Below are positions 1,206 through 22,169 of a stretch of DNA of 64,000 nucleotides, in pieces. The position numbers were made by a program, and so were the translations under genes. Position 1 is the stretch's first letter. Every line of letters begins with the position of its first letter. The stretch is from the IMG/VR virus record IMGVR_UViG_3300043621_000137, positions 5,815 to 69,814 of that record, one strand, 5' to 3'. The DNA comes from a virus. The notes below the pieces were generated by a model. The model had not been told where the DNA came from. It saw nothing but the letters and a program-made list of their open reading frames with translations, and did not search any database.

Positions 1206-1967
1206 GTGTTCACCACACGCGACGCGCACGCGCTCTATTGCTACGAGCGCCAGCGTTGGCAGCGGCTGCGGGCGCTGGACCACTGGCACCTGTGGTTTCG
1301 CGCCTGGCAGCAGAAACGTGGGCTGCGTTACTGGTACCGGGTCGACTGGCTCGCGAAGCGGCAGGCGCAGCGCGAGCGCATGGCCGAAGCCCGGCGATGC
1401 CGTCCAGGAGGGTATGTGAGCCCGGTCGGCGGCTCACGCCACTACCAGGGTGGCGGCCTGGGCGTCGAGGGCGGCTGGGGCTGCCCGAGCTGCGGGGCCG
1501 ACAACGCCGGGCCGATTGCCCAGGGCTGCAGCGTGTGTGGCGCCGGGCGGCCGGGGCGGCACATCGGGACCGAGCCGCCCGTGCCGCCAGCTGCGCCCCG
1601 AGCGGAGCTGCCCGAGACGCCGGAGGGGACACCTGATGACGTGCCGCGCGACACCCCGGCGCTGCGCTGGCTGGCCGAGCACCCCGAGGCCACGCTGGAG
1701 CAGGCCTTCATCGCCGGGTACGTCGAGGGCATGCGGGACATGCGGTATATGAGCCGGCGGCCCACCGACGCGCCCCCCGAGGCCGAGGCGGCGCTCCCGC
1801 CGGAAGCCAAGGTCGCGCGCACCATCGTCGCTGCGCTCACCTACTTCGCCGATCAGGTGCTGCCCGCCGCCTCGGCGGAGGTCGCGAGCGGCGAGTGGTG
1901 CAGCGTGGCGGAAGTCCGGCAGCTCATTCAGCAACTGACGACGACAGGAGAAGTGGCCCATGCCTAA
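1206..1967 (+). CDS. Hypothetical protein with RanBP2-like zinc finger (start uncertain: GTG 1206 or GTG 1416)
   Basis: WGCPSCGADN-x7-CSVC motif; stop overlaps the next gene. Confidence 0.6.
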   Translation: MFTTRDAHALYCYERQRWQRLRALDHWHLWFRAWQQKRGLRYWYRVDWLAKRQAQRERMAEARRCRPGGYVSPVGGSRHYQGGGLGVEGGWGCPSCGADNAGPIAQGCSVCGAGRPGRHIGTEPPVPPAAPRAELPETPEGTPDDVPRDTPALRWLAEHPEATLEQAFIAGYVEGMRDMRYMSRRPTDAPPEAEAALPPEAKVARTIVAALTYFADQVLPAASAEVASGEWCSVAEVRQLIQQLTTTGEVAHA

Positions 1968-3420: not shown

Positions 3421-3425
3421 CGGCC

Positions 3426-3662
3426 ATGCTGCCCTCGCATCCGATCGCCACGCTGATGTTGGAGGATCTGCGCGCCGCCGCGCGCTATTTGGACCAGCTC
3501 ACCGACGAGCCGCCGCCGCACGATCGCCATGCCGCTCACATCCACGCCGTCCGCCTCTGGGCTGCGGTCGATGCGGTCGAACGGCTGGTGATCGGCATCG
3601 AAGCGCTGCTCGTGCAGGAGCACGCGGAGCGGCGGGAGCGCGAAGTTACGCCGAGGGTGTGA
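3426..3662 (+). CDS. Hypothetical protein
   Basis: 78-aa helical ORF directly after the ATPase. Confidence 0.55.
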   Translation: MLPSHPIATLMLEDLRAAARYLDQLTDEPPPHDRHAAHIHAVRLWAAVDAVERLVIGIEALLVQEHAERREREVTPRV

Positions 3663-3876
3663 CGCGCCGTGCGCGCATTGGCGTGGCTGCCGGGCGAACC
3701 CCTAAGCCCGGATCACCCATTCTCGCTACGGAAGGCCCAGGGACGTGGGGGGATGCGAGATCACCCCCGGGCGACGACGACGGCCAACGACGACAACGAC
3801 CACGACGACGACGCTGCTGATGCCGACGGAATGAGCCGCGGTCTCAGGATTCCCCATCGTCTGTTGGAGGTGCATC

Positions 3877-9344: not shown

Positions 9345-10637
9345 GTGAGCGCGCCGCGGGTACCCGGGATCACGCTCCGCTTCGATCCGAAGCGCGCCGC
9401 GACCGGCCTGGGCTGGGGCGTGTTCGTCGACATCCGGCTGAACGGCAAGCGGCACAGCCCGTCGAAGTTCTTCGCGACCGAAGAGGCGGCCGAACAAGCA
9501 TATGCAAGTGCGGTGACGACGGTCGCCGAGCTGCGGGCCGACGCGGCGCGGGAGGCGGCGCTGGACACAGCGCTCGCAATCCCGCCGCTCCCTCGGGCGC
9601 CGAAGGGCACACTGCTCTTCGAGACCCTCGCGCTGCGCTGGCTGGAGGAGGCCTGCAAGCCGCCGCAGAAGACCGCCGCGACCTACATGAACTACAAGGG
9701 GCTGCTCCAGCGTCACCTACTCCCGATCATGCGGACCTGGCCGGTCAGCGACGAGGTGCTCTCGAAGAAGCGGTTGAAGGACGTCCTGAAGATCGACCTG
9801 CACGCCAAGCGCGTCAGCCTCTCGACGCGCGTCGCGTGCCAGCGTTGCCTCAGCGCGCTGTTCACCTGGGCGCTCTCAGAGCTGCCGCCCAAGCAGCTGC
9901 AGATCAACCCGGCGCTCAAGCTCGGGAGCCGGCTGCTGCGCCAGGCCGACGAGATCGACGTGCGCCTGCGTCAGGAGCCCAACCCGATGACGCGCGTGCA
10001 GGTCGAGGCGTTCCTGGCGTGGCAGCGGACCGAGCGCCCCGAGCTGTATGAGTTCTTCCTGTGGCTCGCCGACGAGGGCTCGCGTGTCGGTGAGGTCAGC
10101 GCGCTACAGTGGGCGCACGTCGATCTGGCGCGCGGCAAGGCGCACATCCTCAAGTCCTTCTCGGCCGCGCAACGGAAGTTCGAGCGGCAACAGGGCGATG
10201 AGGACGGCTGCGGCGAGAAGGATACCAAGACGCACCGCAGCGACCAGTACGTCGATCTGAGCGACCGGGTCGTCGAGACGCTGACCGCGCTGAAGTCGGC
10301 GAACCTCGAACGGTGGATGCAGCGCGGGCGCTACGGCAAGCAGGCGACGCACGTCTTCCTGAACGGCGACCTCCAGCCACGCCGCCCCGACAAGTCCGTC
10401 TACAAGGCGTTCCGCGGCGCGTGCCACGCGCTGGATCTCAAGGGCCAGACCGGCAAGCCGTTCACGATCCATTGCCTGCGCGACACCTTCGCGACGCTCG
10501 CGATCTTGGAGGGCAAGCTGGATCTCGGCTGGGTCGCGATGATGCTCGGCCACGCGACCGAGGAGACGCTCAAGGCGCACTACTACAAGTGGGTGCGGCT
10601 GGTCGCGGACAACCCGCTGGCGGGGGTCAAGCGGTGA
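9345..10637 (+). CDS. int: Tyrosine integrase
   Basis: GSRVGE (R), TKT (K), HCLRDTFAT (HxxR), LGHA (H), HYYKW (Y). Confidence 0.95.
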   Translation: MSAPRVPGITLRFDPKRAATGLGWGVFVDIRLNGKRHSPSKFFATEEAAEQAYASAVTTVAELRADAAREAALDTALAIPPLPRAPKGTLLFETLALRWLEEACKPPQKTAATYMNYKGLLQRHLLPIMRTWPVSDEVLSKKRLKDVLKIDLHAKRVSLSTRVACQRCLSALFTWALSELPPKQLQINPALKLGSRLLRQADEIDVRLRQEPNPMTRVQVEAFLAWQRTERPELYEFFLWLADEGSRVGEVSALQWAHVDLARGKAHILKSFSAAQRKFERQQGDEDGCGEKDTKTHRSDQYVDLSDRVVETLTALKSANLERWMQRGRYGKQATHVFLNGDLQPRRPDKSVYKAFRGACHALDLKGQTGKPFTIHCLRDTFATLAILEGKLDLGWVAMMLGHATEETLKAHYYKWVRLVADNPLAGVKR

Positions 10638-10649
10638 CGATGCGGAGGC

Positions 10650-10726
10650 TGGAGCCGACGGTCGGAATCGAACCGACAACCCCCGCATTACGAATGCGGT
10701 GCTCTACCTGTTTGAGCTACGTCGGC
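10650..10726 (-). tRNA. tRNA-Thr(CGT), complete with encoded CCA; probable attP core
   Basis: Acceptor stem GCCGACG/CGTCGGC, anticodon arm CCGCA-TTCGTAA-TGCGG, T-arm GTCGG-TTCGATT-CCGAC, 3' TCCA. Confidence 0.95.
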
Positions 10727-11369: not shown

Positions 11370-11843
11370 ATGACGCTCACCATCATCTCGGGCGGACAGA
11401 CTGGGGCGGACCGCACGGCGCTGGAGGTGGCGCGCGAGCTCGGGCTGCCGACCGGCGGGTGGGCGCCGCACGGCTGGCGCACCGACGCGGGCGCCGACCC
11501 GTCGCTGGCGGACTTCGGGCTGCGGGAGTGTGCCCTGCACAACTACCGCGTACGCACCCGCTGGAATGTCCGCGACGCCACGGCGACCGTGTGGTTCGGG
11601 CACATCGACACGCCCGGCGCGAGCTGCACGATCCGCGCCTGCCTCGACTACGACCGGATCCATCGCTGCAACCCCGACGCGGACGGCCTCGTCGCGTGGC
11701 TCGTCGAGCACCAGCCCCTGATCCTCAACGTCGCGGGCAACCGGCGGCGCACGAACCCCGGCATCGTCCAGCAGGTGCGCGACGTGCTGGCGCCCGCGCT
11801 CGCCCGCTACGTCGCGCTGGAGCAGGCGGGACGCTCATGCTGA
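11370..11843 (+). CDS. Circularly permuted YpsA SLOG protein ('molybdenum carrier'-like family)
   Basis: IISGGQTGADRTAL, GGWAP, YRVRTRWNVRD, LNVAGNR. Confidence 0.88.
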   Translation: MTLTIISGGQTGADRTALEVARELGLPTGGWAPHGWRTDAGADPSLADFGLRECALHNYRVRTRWNVRDATATVWFGHIDTPGASCTIRACLDYDRIHRCNPDADGLVAWLVEHQPLILNVAGNRRRTNPGIVQQVRDVLAPALARYVALEQAGRSC

Positions 11844-14800
11844 CCAAGCCTGCCGGCTGCCAGGGCTGCGCGCTACAAGAGAAGGGCCAGGGCTTCGCGC
11901 CGGCCGACGGCCCGGCCGGCAGCTGGCTCCTGCTCGTCGGCGAGGCGCTCGGCTACACCGAGGCGCTGACCGGCCGGCCGTTCATGGGCGACGCGGGCGG
12001 GATGCTGCAGCGCCTGCTCAACCTGCTCGGCTGGTCGCGGGACGCGATCCGCATCCACAACACGATCTCATGCTTCCCTGGTGACACGATCGTCGAGGCG
12101 GCTGGAGTCCAGCGTGGGTATCGGCGTTGGTATGAAGGGGACGTCGTAACGATCGAAACGCGGGCGGGCGTTCTCACCGGTACCCCGAATCACCCAGTAC
12201 TGACCCAGCAGGGCTGGATCGCGCTGGGCGAGCTGCACGGCGGTGACTATCTGGTCCGCGGTGCCCTCAGCCAGGGGATGCAGCGGAGTGATCCACACGT
12301 AGAGTACCGACCAGCCCCGTTCGCGCAGGTGTACGAGGCGTTGGCGATGGCGGGGGTCACTCGACGGGTGGTTGGCCGCACAGTGGACTTCCACGGCGAC
12401 GGGGGCAACGGCGATGTCGATGTTGTAGCCCTCCACCGGGTACTGCACGCGAGCACCGTCGATCCGAGCGACGAGTTGGCGGAAGAGCTCGTTCTCGACG
12501 CGCCCGACCGCCCACCCGTAGCACTCCTGGCTGATCGCGCGTCGTTCGACACGGTGGCGGATCTGCTCCGCGCTCTGGACGAGCCCACGCGCCGCCTCGT
12601 GGGCGGACGTTACGAGGGCCGCACGGCCCTCCACATCGAGGCGCTGCCAGCGGCTAGCCTGCGCGTCGGAGCGATTGCGGAGCTTGACCCCGGCGGCGAG
12701 CAACGTCGCGCGCAAACGCGCTTGACCTACGCCCCGCTCGACCGCGAGCGCCGCCACGCTCTCCCCCGCCCGATAGCGGCGGATCAGGTCATCAAGATCA
12801 AACGCACGCGCTACTCGGGCCACGTCTACAACCTCCAGACGACGTCGGCACAGTACCTCGCCAACGGCTTCATCGTCCATAACTGCCATCCGCCTGGCGA
12901 CTGGTTCGACGAGCGCGCGCCGTGGTACTACCGCGCGATGGCCCATTGCCCGTACCTCGAAGCGACGCTGGCCGAGCGGCACCCGGTCGTCGTGCCGATG
13001 GGCCTGACCGCGATCCGGCGCGTGCTGCACCTCGAACACAAGAAGAAGGTGCGCGTGCAGGACTTTCATGGGAGTGTGCTCCGCGACCCGACCGATCGCT
13101 TCTGGGTGGTACCGACGTATCACCCGAGCTTCCTGCAGCGCGGGGCGACCAACCTGATCGGCACGGTGCTCTGGGACCTGAAGCGGGCGGAGCAGGCGCG
13201 GGAGAGCGGCCGGCCGGCGAGTACGCACACGCTGGTGATCGACCCGCCGGTCGCCTGGTTCAAGCAGTGGGTCGATCAGGTCATCGCCGCCCGCACGCAG
13301 GACCCGGGCGCCTACCCGCTCAGCAGCGACATCGAAACGCCCGACAAGGCCGGCGGCCAGGACGAGGGCGAGATCACCGCCGACGATGTGAGCTACCAGC
13401 TCCTGCGGCATAACCTCGCGTGCCACCCGGACGAGGGCGTGACCGTGCCGCACGCGGGCCCGTACCTCGACGAGCTGAAGCGGCTGTACGCCTCGCCCGG
13501 ATGCATATGGATGTGGAACCGGGAGTACGACTTCGCGCGCCAGGTCCACGCGGGCCTGCTGCGGGAGGAGGACTCGGGCAAGGTCGTCGACCTGATGTGG
13601 CTCGCGCACTTTCTGCAGAGCGACCTGCCGCGGGGCCTGGGGTTCTGGGCGCCGTTTTATAGCGACTACGGCCCGTGGAAGCACACCGCGTCGGACGAGC
13701 CGGCGAAGTACGGCGCGGTCGACGGCTTGCAGACGCACCGAGTCGGGTTCGGCGTGGTCGGGGATCTCGTGCAGCAGGGGCAGTACTCGATGGCGCTGCG
13801 CCACACGCACACGCTGCTGAGCGAGGTGCTGCGGCCGGCGCAGCTGGTGGGGCTGAAGGTCGACCGCGCGCGGCTGATCGTGTTCAAGGACGAGCTGGCC
13901 GAGAAGGCGCGGGCGCGGCTCCAGGCGCTCCAGGCGGCCGTGCCCGAGGCGCTGCAGCCGCTCACGCCGAAGCCGGGGATGACGCGCCGGCCGGCCGCCT
14001 CGGTGCTGCATGTGAAGGCGACCGCGTTCACCCAGAAGGGCACCCTGCGGAAGGGCAAGCCCACCGCTGAGATCAAACAGGAGCTCTATGCCAAAGCCGT
14101 CGTCGTCGAACAGCTCGTCCTCCGGGAAGTCCTCGTCTGCCGTGATTGCGGCGCTGTTGAAGTGCAGCGACGACATCGATGCGCTGATCCTGCCACTGCA
14201 GCTCGTGCGGCTCACGCTCCTCGACTTGATGTCGACGTTGCGACGGTCCGCCGCTGGTTCTGGCAGGAGCCCTTCAACCCCGACTCCGTCCCCCAGGTCC
14301 TCGCCTACCTCAAGTACCGCAAGCACACGCCCGGGCGGGCGAAGAAGAGCCAGAGCGACGCCTCCACCAACCGCGAAACCCTCGAACGGCTGAGCCGCAC
14401 GACCCAGGATCCGTTCTACCAGGCGCTGCTCGACTACCGCGCCATCGGCAAGGTGAAGGGGACGTATGTGGAAGGGACCGAGAGAAGGCTGGACAGCGAG
14501 GATCGCCTGCACCCAGTGCCGACGTTCAAGCCGAGCACGATGAGGCTCTCGTACGTGAATCCAAATATTACGAACGTCGTCGCCGACAAAGGCGGTTCGG
14601 CAGGGCTGGCGGCCGGCTTCCGGAGCTGCATTGTCGCGTCGCCCGGGTGCCGGCTCCTGGAGGTGGATTTTTCGGCCATCGAAGCCGTCGAGACCGGCTG
14701 GTGCGCGCGCGATGCGGAGTACTACCGGCTAGCGAAGCTCGGCGTCCACGCCGCGCTCGTCACCCATGCGATCGGTCAGCCCTACGATCCGCAGGCGAGC

Positions 14801-15643
14801 GACGCGGAGCTGCGCGCGCTCTTCACGGCGGTGAAGAAGCGCCACCCGCAGGTCTATGAGCCGGCCAAGCGCTACATCCACGGGCGGAGCTACGGCCTGA
14901 CGGTCGCCGGGATGGTGCTGCAGTTCCCGCATCTGTTTCCGACCCAGGCGAGCGCCGAGAAGTTCGCGCGGGTGTTCGAGAAGATGGCGCCGGGCGTGGC
15001 GGCCTGGCAGACCGCGACGCAGGTGAAGGCGAGCCGCCAGCACTACCTGGGTGGGGAAGATCACCCGTTCAAGTACAAGCACTGGTTCTGGAGCGTGTAC
15101 AGCTACAAGCGGCTGACGGCCACGCAGTACTACCGGCTGGTGAAGAAGTACGCCGGGACGGGGGAGCCCCCGTGCGTGCAGATCAACGGGCAGTGGTTCC
15201 GGGTGAGCCTGGGGGAGGATGGGAAGCGGGTGCTCGCGTTCTACCCGCAGAGCATTGCGTCGGGCATTCTGAAGGAAGCGATGCTGCGGCTCTTCGCCGA
15301 CCGAGAGTCGCCGAGCTACCTCGGCGAGGTCTACTTCGGCAAGACGCCGCTCCGCGCCCCGATCCACGACTCGCTGCTCCTGGAGATTCCCGACCGGGCC
15401 TGGGACCGGACGGTCGAGATCGTGTGTCGGGAGATGCAGCGCCCGGTCATCGAGCAGCCGCTGCCGGCCAGCTGGGGGCGGGGCGACGGGGCGTGCGTGG
15501 CGATCGGCGTCGCGGCGAAGGCGGGGCACGACTGGGCGGCGATGGAAGAAATCGCCGTGCCGGGGTACGAGAGCGAGTGGGCGGCCGAAGCGGTGGAGCA
15601 CGACGATGCAGAAGATTGGGCGCATCTCCAACGCGTTATCTAA
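11837..15643 (+). CDS. polA: Family A DNA polymerase with N-terminal family-4 uracil-DNA glycosylase domain, intein-containing
   Basis: UDG: CxxC, VGEALG..E..G.PF.G.AG, TYHPSFL; exonuclease: DIET, NREYD, YGAVD; polymerase motifs DFSAIE, AKRYIHGRSYG, IHDSL. Confidence 0.93.
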   Translation: MLTKPAGCQGCALQEKGQGFAPADGPAGSWLLLVGEALGYTEALTGRPFMGDAGGMLQRLLNLLGWSRDAIRIHNTISCFPGDTIVEAAGVQRGYRRWYEGDVVTIETRAGVLTGTPNHPVLTQQGWIALGELHGGDYLVRGALSQGMQRSDPHVEYRPAPFAQVYEALAMAGVTRRVVGRTVDFHGDGGNGDVDVVALHRVLHASTVDPSDELAEELVLDAPDRPPVALLADRASFDTVADLLRALDEPTRRLVGGRYEGRTALHIEALPAASLRVGAIAELDPGGEQRRAQTRLTYAPLDRERRHALPRPIAADQVIKIKRTRYSGHVYNLQTTSAQYLANGFIVHNCHPPGDWFDERAPWYYRAMAHCPYLEATLAERHPVVVPMGLTAIRRVLHLEHKKKVRVQDFHGSVLRDPTDRFWVVPTYHPSFLQRGATNLIGTVLWDLKRAEQARESGRPASTHTLVIDPPVAWFKQWVDQVIAARTQDPGAYPLSSDIETPDKAGGQDEGEITADDVSYQLLRHNLACHPDEGVTVPHAGPYLDELKRLYASPGCIWMWNREYDFARQVHAGLLREEDSGKVVDLMWLAHFLQSDLPRGLGFWAPFYSDYGPWKHTASDEPAKYGAVDGLQTHRVGFGVVGDLVQQGQYSMALRHTHTLLSEVLRPAQLVGLKVDRARLIVFKDELAEKARARLQALQAAVPEALQPLTPKPGMTRRPAASVLHVKATAFTQKGTLRKGKPTAEIKQELYAKAVVVEQLVLREVLVCRDCGAVEVQRRHRCADPATAARAAHAPRLDVDVATVRRWFWQEPFNPDSVPQVLAYLKYRKHTPGRAKKSQSDASTNRETLERLSRTTQDPFYQALLDYRAIGKVKGTYVEGTERRLDSEDRLHPVPTFKPSTMRLSYVNPNITNVVADKGGSAGLAAGFRSCIVASPGCRLLEVDFSAIEAVETGWCARDAEYYRLAKLGVHAALVTHAIGQPYDPQASDAELRALFTAVKKRHPQVYEPAKRYIHGRSYGLTVAGMVLQFPHLFPTQASAEKFARVFEKMAPGVAAWQTATQVKASRQHYLGGEDHPFKYKHWFWSVYSYKRLTATQYYRLVKKYAGTGEPPCVQINGQWFRVSLGEDGKRVLAFYPQSIASGILKEAMLRLFADRESPSYLGEVYFGKTPLRAPIHDSLLLEIPDRAWDRTVEIVCREMQRPVIEQPLPASWGRGDGACVAIGVAAKAGHDWAAMEEIAVPGYESEWAAEAVEHDDAEDWAHLQRVI
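12068..12823 (-). CDS. Antisense intein-encoded HTH + Vsr/DUF559-like PD-(D/E)XK endonuclease (251 aa)
   Basis: GGAGG-8nt-GTG start; HTH (LIRRYRAGESVAALAVERGV); ENEL...QYPVEGYNIDIA...VAVEVH...H...LRERGWSVLYVW. Confidence 0.8.
   Translation of the reverse strand: MARVARAFDLDDLIRRYRAGESVAALAVERGVGQARLRATLLAAGVKLRNRSDAQASRWQRLDVEGRAALVTSAHEAARGLVQSAEQIRHRVERRAISQECYGWAVGRVENELFRQLVARIDGARVQYPVEGYNIDIAVAPVAVEVHCAANHPSSDPRHRQRLVHLRERGWSVLYVWITPLHPLAEGTADQIVTAVQLAQRDPALLGQYWVIRGTGENARPRFDRYDVPFIPTPIPTLDSSRLDDRVTREA
12071..12883 (+). mobile_element. Intein (271 aa) in the UDG domain
   Basis: Starts CFPGDT, block B TPNHPVLT, block F HVYNLQT, block G NGFIVHN followed by +1 Cys; removal restores NTIS-CHPP. 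Confidence 0.95.
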
Positions 15644-15842
15644 GTGGCGCGTCGGGGTGCGCGACTGGGGGCCGCGCACCTGGACCCGCCTCCGGCAGGC
15701 GTGCTGCCCCCACGCCCATCTCTACCGGGTGACGGAAGGCGGCATGCGGTACTTCCGCTGCTGCGCGTGCGGCTATCAGGTCCCCCAGCTCCGGCGCAGC
15801 CCGGAGGAGCGCGCCCAGCTGCGTGCGCGGTGGCCGCGATGA
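15606..15842 (+). CDS. Small zinc-ribbon protein (start uncertain)
   Basis: CPH...FRCCACG; ATGA overlap with the next gene. Confidence 0.45.
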   Translation: MQKIGRISNALSKWRVGVRDWGPRTWTRLRQACCPHAHLYRVTEGGMRYFRCCACGYQVPQLRRSPEERAQLRARWPR

Positions 15843-16090
15843 CGCCCGCCTGCTGCGCGTGCCTGCACTGGAAGCATCGCTACGACGACCAGTACGGCCG
15901 CGGCCGTGGGACCTGCTGGCACGAGGTGCCGTGTGTGATGACGCACGAGGACGACGACTGCGAGGCCTTTGTCGATCGGCTGGCGAACCGGGCGGAGTTC
16001 GAGGCCAGCCACGCGCGTGCTGCGCGTGATGCGCGTGATGCATATGCAACTATGCTAGGATGCTTGGATGGCAAGCAACGCACACATTGA
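15839..16090 (+). CDS. Small Cys-rich protein
   Basis: CCACLHW...GTC...DDCEAF pattern. Confidence 0.55.
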   Translation: MTPACCACLHWKHRYDDQYGRGRGTCWHEVPCVMTHEDDDCEAFVDRLANRAEFEASHARAARDARDAYATMLGCLDGKQRTH

Positions 16091-16310
16091 TACGGTCCTG
16101 AAGGAACTGGTGGAAACAGCCAACTATCTGCGCGAGACCGGCCGCCTGATGCGGGCGGCGGTCGATCACCTGATCGCAGTCGAGGAGCACTTCGAGAAGA
16201 GCAACCGCTACCTGATCCTGGTGGCTGAGCACGCCGACAAGGCGATCAACGCGGCACTGCGGGCGCAGGAGCGGGCCGAGGACGCTAGCGGGGACGCCGG
16301 TGGCCAGTAA
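16068..16310 (+). CDS. Hypothetical coiled-coil protein
   Basis: AGGA RBS; heptad-like helix. Confidence 0.6.
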   Translation: MASNAHIDTVLKELVETANYLRETGRLMRAAVDHLIAVEEHFEKSNRYLILVAEHADKAINAALRAQERAEDASGDAGGQ

Positions 16311-16488
16311 GCCGAAGGGCCGCCCCTACTCGATGGCCTACACCGCGGCCGGGACGCCGCGGCGGTATCTGCTCAGCGGCATCCCGGCGTCGCTGTGGAT
16401 CTCGTTCAGCGCGCGCGCCAAGCGCGAGCACATCGCCAAGCGGCAGGTGATCCTGCAGCTGGTGGAGGACTGGACCCGCCGGGCCTAG
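16300..16488 (+). CDS. RHH/Arc-like DNA-binding protein
   Basis: RYLLSGIPASLWISFSARAKREHIAKRQVILQLVEDW. Confidence 0.65.
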   Translation: MASKPKGRPYSMAYTAAGTPRRYLLSGIPASLWISFSARAKREHIAKRQVILQLVEDWTRRA

Positions 16489-16667
16489 CGCGACATGACG
16501 TTCGGTAGGTTGCCCGCGAAGCGCGAGAGCAGGTAGAGGACGACCACGATCAGGGCGAGCACCTGGAGGGCGGTCGCCCAGTAGGGCGGCATCGGGATCT
16601 TCGTGGTGATGAGGTAGATGAGGAAGCCGATGAGCGCGATGACGAGGACGAGGATGACCAGATCCAT
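16485..16667 (-). CDS. Two-TM small membrane protein (holin candidate)
   Basis: Two hydrophobic helices with an IPMPP turn; AAGGAG RBS; last gene of the late operon. Confidence 0.7.
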   Translation of the reverse strand: MDLVILVLVIALIGFLIYLITTKIPMPPYWATALQVLALIVVVLYLLSRFAGNLPNVMSR

Positions 16668-16684
16668 ATGCGTCTCCTTCTGAG

Positions 16685-19681
16685 CTAACTGCCGGGGCGG
16701 GGAAGAAAACTCGCGCCGAGCCAGTGCTGCGGGCGGCCCGGTGCGGTGGGTGAATCGTCCTCGCCCCCGCCCGCCAGCTGCGAGGCCGCCGCCGCGCCGC
16801 CGAGGAGCGCCGGCGGCAGGAACGACATCAGCGAGAAGCCCTGCTGGCGGATGCGCGCCTTCATCTGGGGGGAGAGGCGGGCGATCCAGGCAGGCTCGTG
16901 GACAGTGGCGTCGACTTCACCCATCGTCTGGTACGGTTCGACGACCGCCCAGGGATTGCCCGCGTAACCGATATTGAGGGTACCGGCTGCGCGCTCCGCC
17001 TCCCGCTGACTCATGTTCTGGTAGGACGCCAGGCCCCGCTGCCCAGATCGGTCGATGACCCGATAGCGCGTCACCGGCCCTGGGGCCTTGCCGGGGACCG
17101 GGACGGTGCCCTGCTCGACCTGGCCGCCGAAGGGCTTGAGCAGCTTGTTCAGGCGCGCCGGGAGGAGCTGGTCGTAGAAGGACGTCATGCCCTCGCCGCC
17201 GACCTGGAGGTCGAGGCCGGAGAGCGTCGGGAGGTACGGGTCGCCGTCGCGCGCGGCGGATCGCCGCGTCGCCTCGTGGCTCTCGTTGAGTAGCTCGTCG
17301 ATGCGCTCCTGGGCCGCCTCCTCCGACTTGAACCATTCCAGGGCGCCGTCGTAGGTGTGGAGCGGCTCCCCATTGGGATCGTAGATGTGAAAGTACTCGG
17401 GGGTCGTCTCGTGACCGACGCTCCACTGATCGCGCTCCCACTTCCTCCCTGCTTCGTGGCGCTGGATCTGCTCGGTGAGTTTCGCCGCTGGCCCCTCGCC
17501 GATGTGCTCAGCGATCTCCTCCGGCTCGACACCCTCATCGATCACCCGCGCGCCGTCATGATCGTAGGCCAGCAGCCGTCGCTCGACGGGGTCGTACTCG
17601 ATCTTGCTGACCTGCTTGGCCAGGTCGTACCGCTCATTCTGCGTGCCGCCGCTCGTGAAGCCGAGCCAGGACAGGTCGCGGCGGTGGGCGACGTCGAGGA
17701 GCTGCTGCTTGAGGGCCAGATCGGGCCAGGTCTCCTTGAAGGGGGCGTCGGGGATGCCCTTGGGCGATTCGAGCGCGCGGAGCTGCGTGTTGAGGTGGTT
17801 GTACTGGTCGGAGGCACGGTCAAACTCCGCATTGGCGACCTGCGACGCCCGCTGCGCGGCGCGGGCCTCGGGCGTCGCAGCGGCCCTGTCGCGTGCGGTT
17901 CGCCACGCCTCGATGGGGTCTGATTCCCACCCACCTCCAGAGGGCGCCCGGTACGCCTGGGTCGCCTCGTCGAAACTCTTCAGATGCTGCCACTCGGGCG
18001 GCAGGTACTGGGGCAGGTGCTCGCGCTGCCGATTGATGTGCGCCTGGGTCGCGGCGTCGCGGGCGACGGCCTTCTCATGGAGCGCGGCGTCGGCTGCCGC
18101 CAGCTGAGGGCGCAGCTCCGCCGCTCGGGCCTGCATCTCGGGCGTGACCTGCGCGTAGCCCGACCGCTTGCCCGCCTGGTGCCAGTCGGACTGGATCTCT
18201 TCGAGGAAGCGCCCGCGCTCGCCAGGATCGTGCGGGTAGTTGGTAAACCCACGCGACTGCCCGTACAGCGCCGCCTCGTCGTGCGAGATGAGGCCCTGAC
18301 TCACCGCGCGCTGCGGTGCCCCCGAGGCCAGGTGCTCGGGGCGCGTCACCCCGGCGACGTCTTGAATGATCTGCTCGATTTCGGGGAGCGAGCGCATCCC
18401 CTCGATTGGGAGCGCCCGCTCGGTGGTGCGCGCGTGGGCAAGGATGTTGGGCTGATCGAAGTGGCCGGAGCGGTACTGCGCGTTCGGCAGCGCATTGATC
18501 TGCTGCTGGAGGCGATTGAACTTCTCGACGAGTTCGGGGGGATGTGGCGCAAACCGATCCTCGCCGCGCGCCTGATGGAACGCGGCGATCTCGGCATCGA
18601 CCGCATCCCGCTGGGCGACGAGCTTCTGCATGCCCGCCTCATCCGCGCCCGCTAGCTGCGTGAGCGACTCGCGGTAGTTCTCGCCGCCGGGGAGGGTGTA
18701 GCTCTGGTACTTCGGGGCGGCCGTACCCGACTCGGCAATCGCCCGCGCTTCATCCTCGCGCGCCACCGTCCGCGTCGACCCGTCGGAATACTGCACCACC
18801 CACTGATTGCCCCGTTGTTCCACCGGCAGCGCGCCCCCGAGCACCGTCCGCGTGATCTCGGGCGGCGGGTGCGCCTCCAGATGCTGCGCCAGCTCCTCCT
18901 TCGAGATGAGCTGGTTCCCCTTGCGGGTGATCAGGTCGGGCAGGTTGCGGTAGGCGACCTCCTCCTGGCTCGCGCCCGACTTCAGGAGCGAGGCGAGCTT
19001 GTTCGGATGGATGCCCTTCTTGCCGACTTGCTCAGCGACCCGATCGACGCGCGAGAAGAAGCCCGGCGGCAGCACGGCGGCCAGGTGCGCGGCGGCCCCA
19101 CCGACAAACGGCGCGGCGGCCTTGAGCGCCGGGCCGATGGGCAGGTCGAGATTCGTCGCGATGCCGAGCGGCGTCGAGTTTTGGACGCCCTGGTCGATGA
19201 GCTGGTGGGGGATCCAGTCGTTGGGCGCGTTGAGGATGTCACCGACCACCGCGGGGATGCCCGCCCGGGCCATCGCCTCACGCGCCGGGGCGTTGCGCTC
19301 ATCGAGGGCCTGGTGACCCAGCTGAGCGAGCGCCTCGGTCGAGGGGGCCGTCTCCCAAAGCGGGGCGTAGTCCTCCTTGAACTGGTGCGCGATCCCCTGC
19401 ACGGGTGCTGAGCCAAGGATGCGCTTGACGGGGTCGATGACCGACGAGTTGATGAACGCCTGGGTCTGCTGCCCGCGCTTCGCCCGCCAGGCTTCCATCC
19501 CGGCGTCGAACGTCTTCGCGCGCGCCTGCTGCTCGGGCGTGGCGGCGGGCAGCTTCGCGTTGACCCAGTCGCGGGCGCGCGTGATCTTGTCGGTGACCGC
19601 GTCGACCTCGTCGTCGACGCCGACAAGCTCCATGAGCCGGCGCCAGAAGGAGGGAGGGGTGGGATCGTCGGCGGCAGCCAT
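16685..19681 (-). CDS. Large internal virion / ejected protein with EEIQSD domain
   Basis: FFSR...YTLPGGENYRE...HFDQPNILAHAR...FLEEIQSDWHQ...PDAPFK...GMTSFYD; follows the ejection genes. Confidence 0.75.
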   Translation of the reverse strand: MAAADDPTPPSFWRRLMELVGVDDEVDAVTDKITRARDWVNAKLPAATPEQQARAKTFDAGMEAWRAKRGQQTQAFINSSVIDPVKRILGSAPVQGIAHQFKEDYAPLWETAPSTEALAQLGHQALDERNAPAREAMARAGIPAVVGDILNAPNDWIPHQLIDQGVQNSTPLGIATNLDLPIGPALKAAAPFVGGAAAHLAAVLPPGFFSRVDRVAEQVGKKGIHPNKLASLLKSGASQEEVAYRNLPDLITRKGNQLISKEELAQHLEAHPPPEITRTVLGGALPVEQRGNQWVVQYSDGSTRTVAREDEARAIAESGTAAPKYQSYTLPGGENYRESLTQLAGADEAGMQKLVAQRDAVDAEIAAFHQARGEDRFAPHPPELVEKFNRLQQQINALPNAQYRSGHFDQPNILAHARTTERALPIEGMRSLPEIEQIIQDVAGVTRPEHLASGAPQRAVSQGLISHDEAALYGQSRGFTNYPHDPGERGRFLEEIQSDWHQAGKRSGYAQVTPEMQARAAELRPQLAAADAALHEKAVARDAATQAHINRQREHLPQYLPPEWQHLKSFDEATQAYRAPSGGGWESDPIEAWRTARDRAAATPEARAAQRASQVANAEFDRASDQYNHLNTQLRALESPKGIPDAPFKETWPDLALKQQLLDVAHRRDLSWLGFTSGGTQNERYDLAKQVSKIEYDPVERRLLAYDHDGARVIDEGVEPEEIAEHIGEGPAAKLTEQIQRHEAGRKWERDQWSVGHETTPEYFHIYDPNGEPLHTYDGALEWFKSEEAAQERIDELLNESHEATRRSAARDGDPYLPTLSGLDLQVGGEGMTSFYDQLLPARLNKLLKPFGGQVEQGTVPVPGKAPGPVTRYRVIDRSGQRGLASYQNMSQREAERAAGTLNIGYAGNPWAVVEPYQTMGEVDATVHEPAWIARLSPQMKARIRQQGFSLMSFLPPALLGGAAAASQLAGGGEDDSPTAPGRPQHWLGASFLPRPGS

Positions 19682-19690
19682 GTCTGAGGC

Positions 19691-22168
19691 CTAGCGACGG
19701 GGCGTGGTCGCCCGAGCGGGCGGCATCGGCGGCGGAGGCGGTGGGGCGTGCTTGTCGTCCTTCAGGAGCGCGTGCGCCTGCTGCAGCCACTGCGCGGCGG
19801 CCGGCGTGCCGCCGGGGATGGTCAGCCCCTGGGTGAGCAGCCGCACGCCGGTCGGGTGGTTCATCAAGATCGCCATCGCGCCTGTCCCCAGCGTCTCCCC
19901 GACCCCCCACACGGGATTCTTCGCGGCCAAGAACACCTGCCCCACCGCGTGCGCGAAGGTGCCCGACCCCGAGGGGTTCGGGTGCTCGGCGAGCATCCGC
20001 CCCAGCCGGAAGAAATTGTCGAGGTCGGCAATGTGCTGCGGGCTGTAGAGGAGCTGCTTGGTCTGGTCGCCGAGCGCGTTCCACTTGTTCGCGACCGCAG
20101 CGGCCTTCTTGTAGCCGCCTTCTTCGGTCGCCGTCGTCAGCAAGTTCTGGAGGTACCCCCGGCCGAGCTTCCGCATCTCGGGCTGGCCGACTTCCTTGGC
20201 GAGCTTTGTGAGGTACTCGATGTTGACGTCGTCGGCGCGGGTGGCGAGGTCGAAGCCGCGCATCGGCTCGGCGCCACGGGTCTGCACCTCGTGCGCGGTA
20301 CCCGAGAACTTGGTCCGCAGGTCGTCGACCATGTGCTTGAGTGCGGTCTCCCGTCGGCCCTTCTGCAGGCCGGCGAGGATGGCCGGGTCGGCCTGCGTCG
20401 CCGCGTGGTCGACCGCGTCCTGGAGCACCCGGACGCCCTGGGCCGCGATCCCCTGGCTGCGGTTGCGGAGGCCGCCGCTCGCATCGGCGAGCCCCTTGAG
20501 CGCGCCCAGGTCTTTCTCCAGGGCGAGGAGCTCGTGGTAGTCGCCGCCGCCCATGATCCGGCGGAGCGCGGGGAGGGCAGGCGAGGCCTCTTGGACCGCG
20601 ATCGTCGCCCCCTCCAGCTCCTTGAGGAGCGGACGCAGCGCCTGGCGGATCGGCCCCATCGCGACCGGCGCCTGCATCGTGGTCATGATCGGCGCGCCGG
20701 TGTGGGTGCTGATCTGGCCGGTCGTCACCTGTTGGGCCGGCAGCCCCGCGACGGCCTGCTCGGCGGCGTCGTAGCCGACACTCGCCTCGCGCCCCAGGGT
20801 GCCGACGCGGGTATCGAGCGCCTGACCGACGGACTTACCCGCTTGCGAGGGCGTCAGGGGGACGGGATGGATCTTGTCGGCAAGGTCCTCCCCCAGCGCG
20901 GTCAGTCGCTTGCCGCGGAGGTACTCGACCGCCTGGCGCACGGGCGCGCCGAGGAGGGAGTTTTCGGCCCCGACCTGGAGCCGCTTCATAAACAGGTTGG
21001 CGGTGGACGTCGCCAGGTCGATGGGGATGCCGTGGGCGCGCCCGAAGTCGACCGCTGCCTGCCCGACCGCCGGGAGCTTCGAGGCGAAGAGCGCGCGCCC
21101 GGCCTCCCCGAGGACGGGGATACTCCCCGCAATGCCCGCCGCCCAGCCGGGGTCTTGGCCCTGCGCCTTGGCGATGCCCGCCGCGCCGGCTCCTTCAATC
21201 GCCGCGCGGGGGAGGAGGCGTGCGGCCGTCTTGCCGACGATGGGCGCCAGGCGCGGGGCGGTAGCGGCCGTTACGCCGCGCGCCAGGCCGGCGACCTTGC
21301 TCGCCGGGACCAGCGCTTCGGCCACCTGCTCGCCGAACTTGCCGACCTTCTGGGCCGTGTCGCTCGGCGCGAGGACCTGGTCCGCCTGGCGGAAGGCCTC
21401 GGCTGAGAGCCCCGGGCGCCCGTAGAGCGCGTCGACGGCGCTGCTGACGCCCGGGATCTTATGCACGAGGCCCCCGAGGTTGGCCGCCGTCTGCCCCGCC
21501 CCCTTGGCCGCCCCGAGGGCGAGATCCTCGCCCGTCGCCAAGAGCGCCGAGGGGCTGTACCACGGGGGCGCCGAGGGCGTCGCCGGGGTGGTGGGGGTCG
21601 TGCGCTGCTTGAGCTCCTCGGCGGTCGGGACGTGAATGTCGCCGGGGCGCTCCGGGCGCCGCCCCGGCGGGTCCGGCCGGGACGTGGCCCCTGGCGCCGC
21701 CGCCCCCCGCTCGCGCGCCTCCACCCGCTGCCGGAAGTCGGCGAGCGCCTCCTTCACGTACTGAGCGGTCACCGGCCCGTGCTGCGCCAGGTCGGGGCCG
21801 CCGTGGTAGTAGCCGAAGATGGCCGCCGGGTTCGGGTCGTGGTCGCTGGCCTCCCGGATGTTGCGGATGCCTGCCTCGATGTTCTGGAAGGGGTCGGCCG
21901 GGTCGAGGTTGTACGCCTTGGCGGTCGCCGGCATGAGCTGAAAGAAGCCGACCGCGTGGCCCCCGGGCGTCGGCGCGCCGGTCGTGATCGATCCGTCGGC
22001 CGCCTGATGGACGCCCCGCGACTCGCGGTCGAGGATCGTGAAGGCCAGCTCCGGGTCGACCTGGTACTTCTTCGCCGTCTCGCGCACGTAGTCGCGCAGC
22101 GTCGACGGCTGGGTGGCCTGCGGCGGTGGCGGTGGGGGCGGCGCGGCGGCCGAGGCCTGGGGGTCCAT
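19691..22168 (-). CDS. Ejection protein with N-terminal lytic transglycosylase (SLT) domain
   Basis: AKKYQVDPELAFTILDRES, GFFQLMPATA, DPFQNIEAG, YHGGP. Confidence 0.85.
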   Translation of the reverse strand: MDPQASAAAPPPPPPPQATQPSTLRDYVRETAKKYQVDPELAFTILDRESRGVHQAADGSITTGAPTPGGHAVGFFQLMPATAKAYNLDPADPFQNIEAGIRNIREASDHDPNPAAIFGYYHGGPDLAQHGPVTAQYVKEALADFRQRVEARERGAAAPGATSRPDPPGRRPERPGDIHVPTAEELKQRTTPTTPATPSAPPWYSPSALLATGEDLALGAAKGAGQTAANLGGLVHKIPGVSSAVDALYGRPGLSAEAFRQADQVLAPSDTAQKVGKFGEQVAEALVPASKVAGLARGVTAATAPRLAPIVGKTAARLLPRAAIEGAGAAGIAKAQGQDPGWAAGIAGSIPVLGEAGRALFASKLPAVGQAAVDFGRAHGIPIDLATSTANLFMKRLQVGAENSLLGAPVRQAVEYLRGKRLTALGEDLADKIHPVPLTPSQAGKSVGQALDTRVGTLGREASVGYDAAEQAVAGLPAQQVTTGQISTHTGAPIMTTMQAPVAMGPIRQALRPLLKELEGATIAVQEASPALPALRRIMGGGDYHELLALEKDLGALKGLADASGGLRNRSQGIAAQGVRVLQDAVDHAATQADPAILAGLQKGRRETALKHMVDDLRTKFSGTAHEVQTRGAEPMRGFDLATRADDVNIEYLTKLAKEVGQPEMRKLGRGYLQNLLTTATEEGGYKKAAAVANKWNALGDQTKQLLYSPQHIADLDNFFRLGRMLAEHPNPSGSGTFAHAVGQVFLAAKNPVWGVGETLGTGAMAILMNHPTGVRLLTQGLTIPGGTPAAAQWLQQAHALLKDDKHAPPPPPPMPPARATTPRR

Positions 22169-22169
22169 G

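What the first reader, a model, noticed from the sequence alone, without database searches (positions are those of the whole stretch)
12068..12886. Intein whose homing endonuclease is encoded on the opposite strand
Seen: the intein (12071-12883) has intact splicing blocks, but its roughly 175-aa middle has no LAGLIDADG or HNH motif and reads like antisense filler (DFHGDG is the reverse complement of PVAVEV). The minus strand, codon-aligned, encodes a 251-aa protein: N-terminal HTH, then E...QYPVEGYNIDIA..VAVEVH...H...LRERGWSVLYVW, a Vsr/DUF559-type nuclease pattern. Its GGAGG RBS (12832-12836) and GTG (12823) are the reverse complement of the intein block F codons HVYNLQ. Its TGA is the TCA codon of the -1 extein Ser, so the gene fits the intein boundaries almost exactly and both strands stay stop-free for 750 nt. 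Known: intein endonucleases are normally in-frame domains, and Vsr-like (EDxHD) enzymes act as homing endonucleases. Inference: a dual-strand mobile element that separates nuclease expression from host-protein expression, perhaps timed by late minus-strand transcription. I know of no description of this architecture.
Basis: partly seen in the sequence, partly recalled or inferred. Interest (0 to 1): 0.93.

Follow-up and report, generated by a model that had tools for sequence, protein, structure and literature searches.

The report
Intein with antisense-encoded homing nuclease gene
A self-splicing protein insert (intein) in a phage DNA-polymerase gene carries, on the opposite DNA strand and codon against codon, a conserved gene for a DNA-cutting enzyme that probably spreads the insert; the layout is real and widespread, but a 2025 preprint already described it.

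Summary
Window 12071-12883 (+) is a class-1 intein in the UDG domain of a UDG-PolA phage gene. Window 12823-12068 (-) is a 251-aa ORF in exact antiparallel codon register.

In this 70% GC window alone the open antisense frame is unremarkable (P about 0.24). Relatives settle it:
- The antisense profile hit the opposite strand in 80 of 80 IMG/VR loci found with the sense intein, always in the same register.
- 62 of 63 unique inteins have no antisense stop in the middle, against about 202 expected.
- 117 GenBank phage records hold the protein. In 7 of 7 fetched, the annotated host gene lies on the other strand.
- Constraint switches strand at intein codons ~60 and ~240.

The antisense protein folds confidently and resembles Vsr, a DUF559-like protein and I-Bth0305I. 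The sense middle is predicted disordered and the ends form a HINT fold.

Contigs in two metagenome runs lack exactly the 813 intein bases.

Expression, cleavage and splicing are untested.

Not new: bioRxiv 10.1101/2025.01.02.630785 reports anti-sense VSR-like endonucleases in full inteins. This scan also noted the layout on other DNA before. This is a new member, in a new host gene.

The parts
11837..15643 (+). Host gene: UDG (family-4-like) domain fused to a family A DNA polymerase, 1268 aa including the intein
   Evidence: Pfam DNA_pol_A 1.4e-23, UDG 5.5e-15, Intein_splicing 2.5e-8; translation
12071..12883 (+). Intein, 271 codons, class-1 features (Cys1, block B TPNHP, His-Asn end, Cys+1)
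   Evidence: AF2 model matches the Mtu RecA intein splicing domain: Z 12.5, rmsd 1.6 A, 105 aligned. Exactly these 813 bases are missing from contigs in runs X4 and X5
12071..12268 (+). N-terminal HINT lobe (codons 1-66). The sense frame dominates the constraint up to about codon 60
   Evidence: pLDDT 84-98 over these blocks; sense BLOSUM exceeds antisense and sense position 3 is the most variable
12182..12196 (.). Doubly read core: sense block B T-P-N-H-P equals antisense W-V-I-R-G, a strand of the nuclease domain
   Evidence: T38, P39, N40, H41 and P42 are invariant in 62 inteins. YRVIRGxGE is conserved in the antisense family. Both frames score high in bin 31-45
12443..12745 (+). Sense-frame filler or linker (codons ~125-225), predicted disordered, with no sense-frame conservation
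   Evidence: pLDDT below 50 for 125-161, 167-205 and 210-218; mean sense BLOSUM about 0 over codons 121-225
12758..12883 (+). C-terminal HINT lobe (codons ~230-271, blocks F and G)
   Evidence: pLDDT 90-98; sense-constrained from about codon 241
12068..12823 (-). Antisense ORF, 251 aa plus TGA: HTH plus Vsr/DUF559-like nuclease, the putative homing endonuclease
   Evidence: 18 homologues at E 7e-47 to 1.7e-16; 1,898 cluster representatives at E <= 1e-30; AF2 mean pLDDT 85.4
12821..12823 (-). GTG start codon, the reverse complement of the His codon of block F
   Evidence: A start codon sits at the same aligned codon in 48 of 63 unique relatives, and 2-3 codons away (again on a His codon) in 10 more
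12832..12836 (-). GGAGG Shine-Dalgarno-like site, the reverse complement of the Asn-Leu-Gln codons of block F
   Evidence: SD-like site in 43 of 58 relatives. The block F Leu codon is CTC in 41 of 54, against 31.8% in exteins (P 3.5e-11)
12674..12796 (-). N-terminal helix-turn-helix DNA-binding region (antisense residues ~10-50)
   Evidence: Pfam HTH_58 0.004. The model matches GcrA DBD (Z 6.8), a phage repressor and resolvase HTH. The family profile hits 2lvs at 8e-6
12164..12511 (-). Nuclease catalytic domain (antisense residues ~105-220)
   Evidence: Vsr 1cw0 Z 10.4 (rmsd 2.6, 108 aligned), 3hrl Z 9.8, I-Bth0305I 3r3p Z 9.3. Foldseek top hit is 3r3p, prob 0.98. The profile hits 3hrl at 6e-4
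12389..12424 (-). Invariant core YNIDIA..PVAVEV (N134, D136, V142-E145), the candidate active site. On the sense strand it reads DFHGDG..VDVV
   Evidence: Invariant columns in A1. D and E align with the YIVDF and IVEADG motifs of 3hrl. All three codon positions show low diversity in bin 106-120
12070..12884 (.). Homing-site junction (HNTIS|CHPPG): the empty allele joins 12070 to 12884
   Evidence: The joint skips 813 bases in X4 (side 185, depth 14.7) and X5 (side 42). X3 has a more diverged empty allele

Best explanation
This is a contiguous, splicing-type (class 1, HINT) intein. It sits before the Cys of the C(H/R)PP motif in the UDG domain of a phage UDG-PolA gene. Its homing endonuclease is a separate gene on the opposite strand rather than an in-frame domain.

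That gene encodes a 251-aa protein with an HTH region and a Vsr/DUF559-like nuclease domain, read in exact antiparallel codon register.

Shown here:
- Both frames are open, and the arrangement is conserved in every relative examined.
- Purifying selection acts on the sense frame at the two ends (codons 1-60 and 241-271) and on the antisense frame in between (61-240). Two short stretches, block B and the nuclease core, are conserved in both frames.
- The nuclease start codon and SD lie in the codons of intein block F.
- An allele lacking exactly the intein circulates in the same environments.

Inferred:
- The host mRNA is translated straight through a roughly 100-residue disordered filler, and the HINT halves splice it out to restore UDG-PolA.
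- A minus-strand transcript, of unknown promoter, is translated into the nuclease.
- The nuclease binds through its HTH region and cuts the intein-less HNTIS|CHPPG allele in co-infecting phages, and repair copies the whole two-strand cassette in.
For: - Sequence facts.
- Host domains.
- The antisense protein is a real family: 18 homologues of 30-51% identity, with invariant E110, N134, D136 and VAVE, and 1,898 cluster representatives at E <= 1e-30.
- Same layout in relatives: 80 of 80 IMG/VR loci retrieved with the sense intein, register identical in 80 of 80. This holds across 11 extein clusters, including MuF (42) and UDG (5).
- GenBank: 117 phage records hold the protein (Salmonella, Gordonia, Pseudomonas, Klebsiella, Aaphi23 and others). 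In 7 of 7 fetched, the annotated gene is on the other strand and nothing is annotated for the nuclease.
- Stops: 62 of 63 unique inteins have none in the middle. About 202 are expected and 6 observed, all in L091, whose sense frame is still open.
- Strand switch in constraint: independent of which protein was aligned (10-locus pilot).
- Translation signals: start codon at the aligned His codon in 48 of 63, plus 10 nearby. SD-like site in 43 of 58, with a synonymous CTC bias at P 3.5e-11.
- Folds: antisense pLDDT 85.4, with Vsr Z 10.4, 3hrl Z 9.8 and I-Bth0305I Z 9.3. Sense ends match HINT at Z 12.5, and the middle has pLDDT below 50.
- Empty allele: the joint 12070->12884 skips 813 bases in two runs from two studies. 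The X4 contig differs from the window at 12 of 671 upstream positions. Intein-bearing pieces are also present in those runs.
Against: - There is no evidence of transcription or translation of the minus strand. No sigma-70-like promoter was found at 11800-17000 of the window, and none on the nuclease strand in the Klebsiella phage locus. Only the Aaphi23 locus has a good one.
- In this window alone the open frame is not statistically unusual.
- Pfam hits of the window protein to nuclease families fall below the curated cut-offs. Foldseek E-values to 3r3p are only 9e-3.
- H147 of the window's VAVEVH is not conserved in the family, so the literal EDxHD motif is not established.
- The 80 loci were retrieved with a query that includes the intein middle. 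The sample therefore cannot reveal relatives of this intein that lack the nuclease.
- Presence/absence polymorphism is also compatible with precise loss.
Confidence: 0.8

Rival explanations
1. The antisense ORF is a chance by-product of a GC-rich gene. In the codon-aligned antisense frame, stops arise only from the rare sense codons TTA, CTA and TCA, so long shadow ORFs are common and mean nothing.
For: In the window, 1.4 stops are expected and none seen (P about 0.24). The same antisense frame stays open for 814 aa, far beyond the intein.
Against: - The frame is equally open in carriers of 39-52% GC. For extein GC below 0.5, n=6, 39.3 stops are expected and 0 seen. For 0.5-0.6, n=13, 77.6 are expected and 0 seen.
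- The translation is a conserved family with Pfam HTH and DUF559 annotations on homologues.
- It folds with pLDDT 85 into a Vsr-like domain.
- Antisense position 3 is the most variable position in the middle.
Confidence: 0.01
2. The nuclease gene is real but, in this phage, is a silent relic. A free-standing or inverted endonuclease gene once invaded the intein. The intein is now inherited vertically and the antisense ORF is no longer expressed or active.
For: No promoter or RNA evidence was found. One relative, L091, shows exactly this fate: six antisense stops with the sense frame intact. The preprint notes vertical-looking inheritance for some VSR-like cases.
Against: - The ORF is intact, with all family-invariant residues, a start codon and GGAGG in place.
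- An identical copy occurs on a second IMG/VR contig.
- Empty and filled alleles co-occur in the same metagenomes on nearly identical flanks, which fits ongoing gain or loss.
Confidence: 0.12
3. The antisense protein is expressed but is not a homing endonuclease. It could be an HTH regulator or general nuclease serving the phage, or its antisense transcript could regulate the host gene. In that case the intein is merely a tolerant landing pad.
For: It has an HTH domain or domains. The literal EDxHD motif is not shown. Antisense transcription across an essential gene would be expected to affect it (inference).
Against: - In every case seen, the family sits inside this intein type and travels with it across at least 11 unrelated extein clusters.
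- The C-terminal motif that mirrors block B is present in 138 of 160 family members, with near variants in the rest.
- Its closest solved folds include a proven homing endonuclease.
- Presence/absence polymorphism falls exactly at the intein borders.
Confidence: 0.06

Closest known systems
Full inteins with an anti-sense VSR-like homing endonuclease in actinobacteriophages (Gosselin, Arsenault and Gogarten, bioRxiv 10.1101/2025.01.02.630785; passages and outline read)
   Same: - A contiguous intein with intact splicing blocks.
- The in-frame middle has no recognisable structure.
[quoted passage not shown]
- The best GenBank matches of the window's protein are Gordonia phage minor capsid (MuF-like) genes.
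   Different: - The host gene here is a UDG-PolA fusion; the word 'uracil' does not occur in the preprint's main text.
- The carrier is an uncultured soil or sediment phage of unknown host.
- Relatives found here reach phages of Salmonella, Klebsiella, Pseudomonas and Aggregatibacter.
[quoted passage not shown] Here the ORF overlaps block B and block F, and its start and SD are block F codons.
- The main text has no 'start codon' or 'promoter'.
- Its supplementary tables could not be opened and may list more.
Fractured genes: split inteins with a free-standing Vsr-like homing endonuclease gene between the halves (Dassa et al. 2009, PMC2677866; passages read)
   Same: - A Vsr-like putative homing endonuclease associated with an intein at the usual endonuclease insertion region.
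- Mainly in phage DNA-metabolism genes.
- The nuclease is a separate gene with its own expression signals.
   Different: There the host gene is broken into two ORFs and the intein is split. Here the host ORF and intein are continuous, and the nuclease is on the other strand and overlaps the intein codons.
I-Bth0305I / EDxHD homing endonucleases (Taylor et al. 2011, PMC3239194; search listing and abstract only) and Vsr, DUF559
   Same: The catalytic domain fold matches: 3r3p Z 9.3, 1cw0 Z 10.4, 3hrl Z 9.8. Acidic residues align with 3hrl. DNA binding and catalysis appear modular.
   Different: I-Bth0305I is encoded in a group I intron on the sense strand. Identity is about 19%. The literal EDxHD motif is not demonstrated here, and the DNA-binding part is an HTH.
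[quoted passage not shown] 2025, PMC11855218; abstract and outline read)
   Same: A homing nuclease ORF is hidden in another reading frame of an insertion that stays open in the host frame, in phages, and is unannotated.
   Different: That ORF is on the same strand, is an HNH nuclease, and the insertion has no splicing domain.
Inteins with anti-sense LAGLIDADG endonucleases (Gorbalenya 1998; Gogarten et al. 2002; known to me only as cited in the preprint; neither paper seen)
   Same: The endonuclease gene lies on the strand opposite a contiguous intein.
   Different: A different nuclease family; details not checked.

Membership tests
Class 1 (HINT) intein | N-terminal Cys/Ser nucleophile, block B T-x-x-H, C-terminal His-Asn, and a +1 Cys/Ser/Thr | tested here: met
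   Cys1, T38-P-N-H41, H270-N271 and Cys+1. C1, T38, H41 and N271 are invariant in 62 relatives.
Class 1 (HINT) intein | HINT fold | tested here: met
   Pfam Intein_splicing 7.8e-10. The AF2 model matches the Mtu RecA intein at Z 12.5, rmsd 1.6 A, 105 aligned.
Class 1 (HINT) intein | In-frame insertion whose removal restores a continuous host gene | tested here: met
   UDG and PolA domains flank it in one ORF. Natural contigs join 12070 to 12884, skipping 813 bases.
Class 1 (HINT) intein | Protein splicing activity | not testable with these tools
   Needs an expression and splicing assay.
Full intein with an anti-sense VSR-like homing endonuclease (2025 preprint) | [quoted passage not shown] | tested here: met
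   Same register in 80 of 80 relatives.
Full intein with an anti-sense VSR-like homing endonuclease (2025 preprint) | Anti-sense product has a Vsr-like fold (1CW0, 3R3P) | tested here: met
   1cw0 Z 10.4, 3r3p Z 9.3; Foldseek top hit is 3r3p.
Full intein with an anti-sense VSR-like homing endonuclease (2025 preprint) | Carrier is an actinobacteriophage, and the host protein is one of those reported | tested here: inconclusive
   The carrier is an uncultured IMG/VR phage of 70% GC with unknown host. The preprint lists 'DNA polymerase' among hosts of non-canonical HENs without saying which type. Its supplements are closed.
Vsr-like / EDxHD homing endonucleases (I-Bth0305I family) | Vsr-type alpha/beta nuclease fold | tested here: met
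   (Z 9.3-10.4, 87-108 residues aligned).
Vsr-like / EDxHD homing endonucleases (I-Bth0305I family) | Conserved E, D, H, D catalytic motif | tested here: inconclusive
   E110, D136 and E145 are invariant, but H147 is variable. No residue-level alignment to I-Bth0305I was made. The motif definition is recalled from the preprint's wording, not checked in the 2011 paper.
Vsr-like / EDxHD homing endonucleases (I-Bth0305I family) | Site-specific cleavage of the element-less allele | not testable with these tools
   Needs an in vitro cleavage assay on the 12070|12884 junction sequence.
Pfam DUF559 (PF04480) / MTES_1575 (PF18741) | Score at or above the curated gathering threshold | tested here: not met
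   The window protein scores 15.4 bits against a 20.6 cut-off (DUF559) and 21.5 against 38.2 (MTES_1575). Some homologues carry precomputed PF04480 or PF18741 hits. The family profile hits the DUF559-like 3hrl at 6e-4. It is a distant relative, not a member by Pfam's rule.
[quoted passage not shown] | Host gene and intein broken into two ORFs with the nuclease gene between them | tested here: not met
   A single uninterrupted sense ORF runs from 11837 to 15643. The sense frame stays open across the intein in all 70 inteins whose borders could be set.

The most novel reading that the evidence does not exclude
The intein and nuclease are an obligate two-strand unit rather than a nuclease gene parked in a linker.
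- The nuclease family may exist only inside this intein type.
- Its start codon and ribosome-binding site are written in the codons of splicing block F.
- A strand of its catalytic domain (RVIRG) is written in the codons of splicing block B (TPNHP).
- About 35 or more codons therefore specify folded parts of two proteins on opposite strands.
- The cassette has moved among at least 11 host-gene clusters in phages of several bacterial phyla.

This goes beyond, and partly against, the preprint's statement that such ORFs lie outside the splicing domain. Antisense transcription of the nuclease might also throttle the host gene.
Probability: 0.35. Interest if true: 0.65.

Novelty: new member of a known kind. 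Interest (0 to 1): 0.5.

Why it matters
- Hundreds of phage genomes, including well-studied Salmonella, Klebsiella, Pseudomonas, Aggregatibacter and Gordonia phages, carry an unannotated nuclease gene inside an annotated head or replication gene. Gene callers and curators miss it by design.
- It is a large, natural and statistically clean example of long antisense dual coding in prokaryotic viruses, with a visible hand-over of selective constraint between strands.
- It shows how a free-standing homing endonuclease and an intein can fuse into one mobile unit without the nuclease being translated as part of the host protein. This bears on models of how inteins acquire endonucleases.
- For this window, it adds a new host gene (UDG-PolA), an insertion site at a conserved Cys, and a naturally occurring empty allele. 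Together these make a homing test straightforward.

Tried and rejected
- **Chance ORF.** Considered first and rejected (see rivals).
- **The look-up of encoding contigs.** Closed, so the contexts of the 18 first homologues could not be read. I used the search for related loci and the phage collection instead.
- **The search for related loci with alignment A1.** Failed twice because no stretch was conserved enough. The single protein found only 3 loci. The sense-intein alignment A2 then gave 80.
- **Promoters and terminators.**
  - None were found in window 11800-13600 or 13600-17000, apart from one plus-strand terminator-like site at 13635 at chance level.
  - None on the nuclease strand in L008.
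  - One good site in L005.
  - So a conserved promoter is not shown.
- **RNA evidence.** No RNA holder was listed for the window stretch, so nothing can be said on expression.
- **Within-intein differences.** Read laying did not show enough rows to tell whether the intein is less diverged than its flanks in the intein-bearing X2 contig.
- **Foldseek.** No PDB match reached E <= 0.001 for the antisense model; the VIA search was needed.
- **Rows dropped.**
  - 10 of the 80 loci were dropped before the start-codon and stop counts, because my automatic borders failed: L015, L024, L031, L050, L055, L057, L058, L074, L089, L090.
  - 7 duplicates were collapsed.
  - L091 was left out of the selection scan.
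- **Literature.**
  - Five of my own searches missed the prior art. It was found only after earlier scan notes pointed to a 2025 preprint.
  - Gorbalenya 1998 and Gogarten 2002 were not found in the library and were not read.
  - The preprint's supplementary tables are closed. They may list the hosts of its VSR-like inteins.
- **Tree.** A quick FastTree of the nucleases was made without checking support values, so no claim about the order of host switches is made.
Full report
**What is in the window**

The record is a complete IMG/VR virus contig of 69.8 kb and about 70% GC. The ORF at 11837-15643 (+) encodes a 1268-aa protein with a uracil-DNA-glycosylase domain (Pfam UDG 5.5e-15), a family A DNA polymerase domain (1.4e-23) and an intein.

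The intein spans 12071-12883 (271 codons). It has Cys1, block B T-P-N-H-P (12182-12196), a C-terminal His-Asn and a +1 Cys. It interrupts HNTIS|CHPPG. From my own recollection, not from a call, this Cys is one of the Fe-S ligands of family 4 UDGs.

On the minus strand, codon against codon, a 251-aa ORF runs from GTG 12823 to TGA 12068.

**Is it more than chance?**

In this window alone, no. Stops in this antisense register need the sense codons TTA, CTA or TCA. These are rare at 70% GC, so only 1.4 are expected (P of none about 0.24). The frame also stays open for 814 aa. GC by codon position tilts only slightly towards the antisense frame in the middle. The case rests on relatives.

**Relatives**

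- The antisense protein has 18 homologues at E 7e-47 to 1.7e-16 in the clustered protein collection. Some are named very-short-patch-repair endonuclease or carry HTH, DUF559 or MTES_1575 Pfam hits.
- Their alignment has invariant E110, N134, D136 and V142-A-V-E145.
- A profile search of 1.84 billion representatives gave 1,898 proteins at E <= 1e-30, 9,907 at <= 1e-10 and 36,134 at <= 1e-3.
- tblastn against 50,697 GenBank phage records found 117 records, 109 of them covering at least 80% of the query. By host genus: Salmonella 62, Gordonia 15, Pseudomonas 15, Klebsiella 8, plus Aaphi23 and others.
- In 7 of 7 records fetched, the annotated gene under the match (MuF-like minor capsid, head protein or hypothetical) is on the opposite strand. 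No feature is annotated for the nuclease.
- Searching IMG/VR with an alignment of three sense inteins gave 138 relatives, of which the best 80 were kept.
- In 80 of 80, the antisense-family profile hit the strand opposite the intein, at E 2.6e-32 or better. Coverage was near full length in all but L091.
- In 80 of 80, the register is the same codon-aligned one.

Caveat: the query included the intein middle. This sample therefore cannot show whether nuclease-free relatives of this intein exist.

**Open frames and decay**

Automatic borders were clean for 70 of the 80 loci, giving 63 unique inteins. Between codon 30 and 30 codons from the end, 62 of 63 have no antisense stop. At the extein rates of TTA, CTA and TCA, about 202 stops are expected (a rough, pseudocount-inflated estimate).

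| Extein GC | n | Stops expected | Stops observed |
|---|---|---|---|
| below 0.5 | 6 | 39.3 | 0 |
| 0.5-0.6 | 13 | 77.6 | 0 |
| 0.6 and above | 44 | 84.7 | 6 |

The 6 observed stops are all in L091. There the nuclease reading is riddled with stops while the sense frame is intact: a decayed nuclease in a retained intein. The named low-GC phages gave P of none of about 5e-6, 5e-6 and 9e-4.

**Which strand is selected where**

I used codon alignments of 62 unique inteins, built on either the sense or the antisense protein. The two gave the same result.

| Intein codons | Dominant constraint | Detail |
|---|---|---|
| 1-60 and 241-271 | Sense | Sense BLOSUM 1.7-3.8 against antisense 0.2-2.2; sense position 3 most variable |
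| 61-240 | Antisense | Sense BLOSUM about 0 in most bins, antisense 0.2-3.0; sense position 1 (antisense position 3) most variable |
| 31-45 (block B / RVIRG) and 106-120 (DFHGDG..VDVV / YNID..PVAVEV) | Both frames | Conserved in both readings |

A pilot on ten loci gave the same picture.

**Translation signals**

- A start codon sits at the antisense codon that complements the block F His in 48 of 63 unique inteins. It sits 2-3 codons further on, again on a His codon of an FHG variant, in 10. It is elsewhere or unclear in 5. Among the ten first loci it was 8 ATG and 2 GTG.
- An SD-like site lies 3-12 nt upstream in 43 of 58.
- The Leu codon of block F that supplies the GAG of the SD is CTC in 41 of 54, against 31.8% of extein Leu codons (P 3.5e-11). 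CTG occurs in 1 of 54 against 39.4% (P 6.5e-11). This is a synonymous-site signal in the sense gene at a place where the antisense ORF has not yet begun.

**Folds**

With the 19-sequence alignment, the antisense protein gave mean pLDDT 85.4. Values are high from residue 10 to about 220 and low for the last 25 residues, which overlap the first 25 intein codons.
- Foldseek's best PDB hits are the I-Bth0305I catalytic domain (3r3p, E 9e-3, prob 0.98-0.99) and 3hrl.
- The exhaustive VIA search ranks Vsr 1cw0 first (Z 10.4, rmsd 2.6, 108 aligned), then 3hrl (Z 9.8) and 3r3p (Z 9.3). Residues 1-50 match HTH domains.
- The family profile hits 3hrl at 6e-4, with E110, Q127, D136 and E145 aligned to its conserved residues. 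It also hits a tandem-HTH protein, 2lvs, at 8e-6.

With 62 sequences, the sense intein gave pLDDT 84-98 for residues 1-70 and 90-98 for 230-271. It gave below 50 for 125-161, 167-205 and 210-218. The model matches the Mtu RecA intein splicing domain at Z 12.5, rmsd 1.6 A, 105 aligned (Foldseek 6e-4).

Antisense residue r pairs with sense codon 252-r. The folded nuclease domain (residues 105-220) therefore overlies sense codons 147-32, which include block B and the end of the N-terminal HINT lobe. About 35 codons (32-66) are predicted to be folded in both readings. Codons 81-120 are also confidently modelled in the sense frame, but their sense conservation is weak except at 106-120. I do not lean on that region.

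**Mobility**

Contigs of four public metagenome runs were laid on 11400-13900.
- In X4 (one contig, 185 bases beyond the joint, depth 14.7) and X5 (42 bases), a contig joins 12070 directly to 12884 and skips 813 bases, exactly the intein. The 3-base ambiguity is explained by TGC at both borders.
- The X4 contig differs from the window at only 12 of 671 upstream positions.
- Short intein-bearing contigs occur in the same runs. X2 holds an intein-bearing relative (41 differences in 1,889 bases).
- X3 has a more diverged empty allele: 826 bases skipped and 13 others inserted, a net loss of 813.

Filled and empty alleles therefore coexist on closely related genomes, as expected for a homing element. 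Precise loss is not excluded.

The exteins of the 63 unique inteins fall into 11 clusters (MuF-like 42, UDG 5, others of unknown family). In a quick tree of the nucleases, the UDG-borne copies do not group together (supports not examined).

**Expression is the open point**

No sigma-70-like promoter or terminator of note was found around the window's nuclease gene. No RNA run holds the sequence. From about 16.7 kb onward the window has a block of long minus-strand ORFs, one with an SLT domain, that converge on the polymerase gene.

In Aaphi23, a 10-of-12 promoter match with an extended -10 lies inside the intein's last codons, just upstream of the SD. The Klebsiella phage locus has none on that strand.

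**Comparison with what is known**

My first five literature searches found nothing on this layout. They did turn up the fractured-genes paper (split inteins with free-standing Vsr-like genes) and the ShiLan out-of-frame HNH insertion.

Earlier notes of this scan list 212 notes in at least 165 genomes. Three of them said a 2025 preprint had described the arrangement. I found and read passages of it. [quoted passage not shown] Their predicted structures match 1CW0 (Z 10.6) and 3R3P. They cite anti-sense LAGLIDADG inteins from 1998 and 2002; I have not seen those papers.

What this locus and the analysis add:
- a new host gene and insertion site;
- carriers far outside actinophages;
- the fixed codon register;
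- the strand switch in constraint;
- start and SD signals inside block F;
- overlap with the splicing domain, which the preprint says is atypical;
- a natural empty allele.

**Verdict**

This is a new member of a known but very recently described kind. Confidence that it is a real antisense-encoded nuclease gene acting as the intein's homing endonuclease: about 0.8. Interest: 0.5.

Noticed in passing
L091:2501-3550 (IMG/VR locus): A relative in which the antisense nuclease reading has six stops while the 350-codon sense intein frame stays open. It is a natural example of nuclease decay inside a retained intein.
   Followed up: partly
L031 (IMG/VR locus), about 1568-3769: The intein region is about 697 codons by my rough borders, with two separate antisense-profile hits (2807-3769 and 1568-2803). 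It may be a tandem or nested arrangement.
   Followed up: no
L005:2256-2283 (Aaphi23, NC_004827.1): A promoter-like site (CTTACA, 16 nt, TATAAT with TG; 10 of 12) on the nuclease strand, inside the last intein codons and just upstream of the SD and ATG. No equivalent was found in the window or in Klebsiella phage KpTDp1.
   Followed up: partly
window 9345-10726: A tyrosine integrase gene (Pfam Phage_integrase 1.9e-12) is followed directly by a tRNA-Thr(CGT) gene on the minus strand (10650-10726). This suggests an attachment-site region or a prophage border inside the record.
   Followed up: partly
window 11370-11843: A circularly permuted YpsA SLOG-family protein (Pfam cpYpsA 9.5e-32) is encoded immediately upstream of the UDG-PolA gene and overlaps its start.
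   Followed up: partly
window 16685-40450, minus strand: A long block of minus-strand ORFs (one with an SLT transglycosylase domain, 19691-22234) converges on the plus-strand polymerase gene. No terminator-like site was found on the minus strand between them.
   Followed up: partly
window 11403-13291, as covered by a contig of run X2: An intein-bearing relative differs at 41 of 1,889 positions. All 26 of its differences listed in the output lie in the exteins, but the list was truncated. Whether the intein is less diverged than its flanks, a sign of recent transfer, could not be decided.
   Followed up: no
L012, L014, L017, L035, L060 (UDG-borne inteins): In a quick tree of the antisense nucleases, the UDG-borne copies fall in three places among MuF-borne ones. 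This hints at repeated host-gene switching. Support values were not examined.
   Followed up: partly
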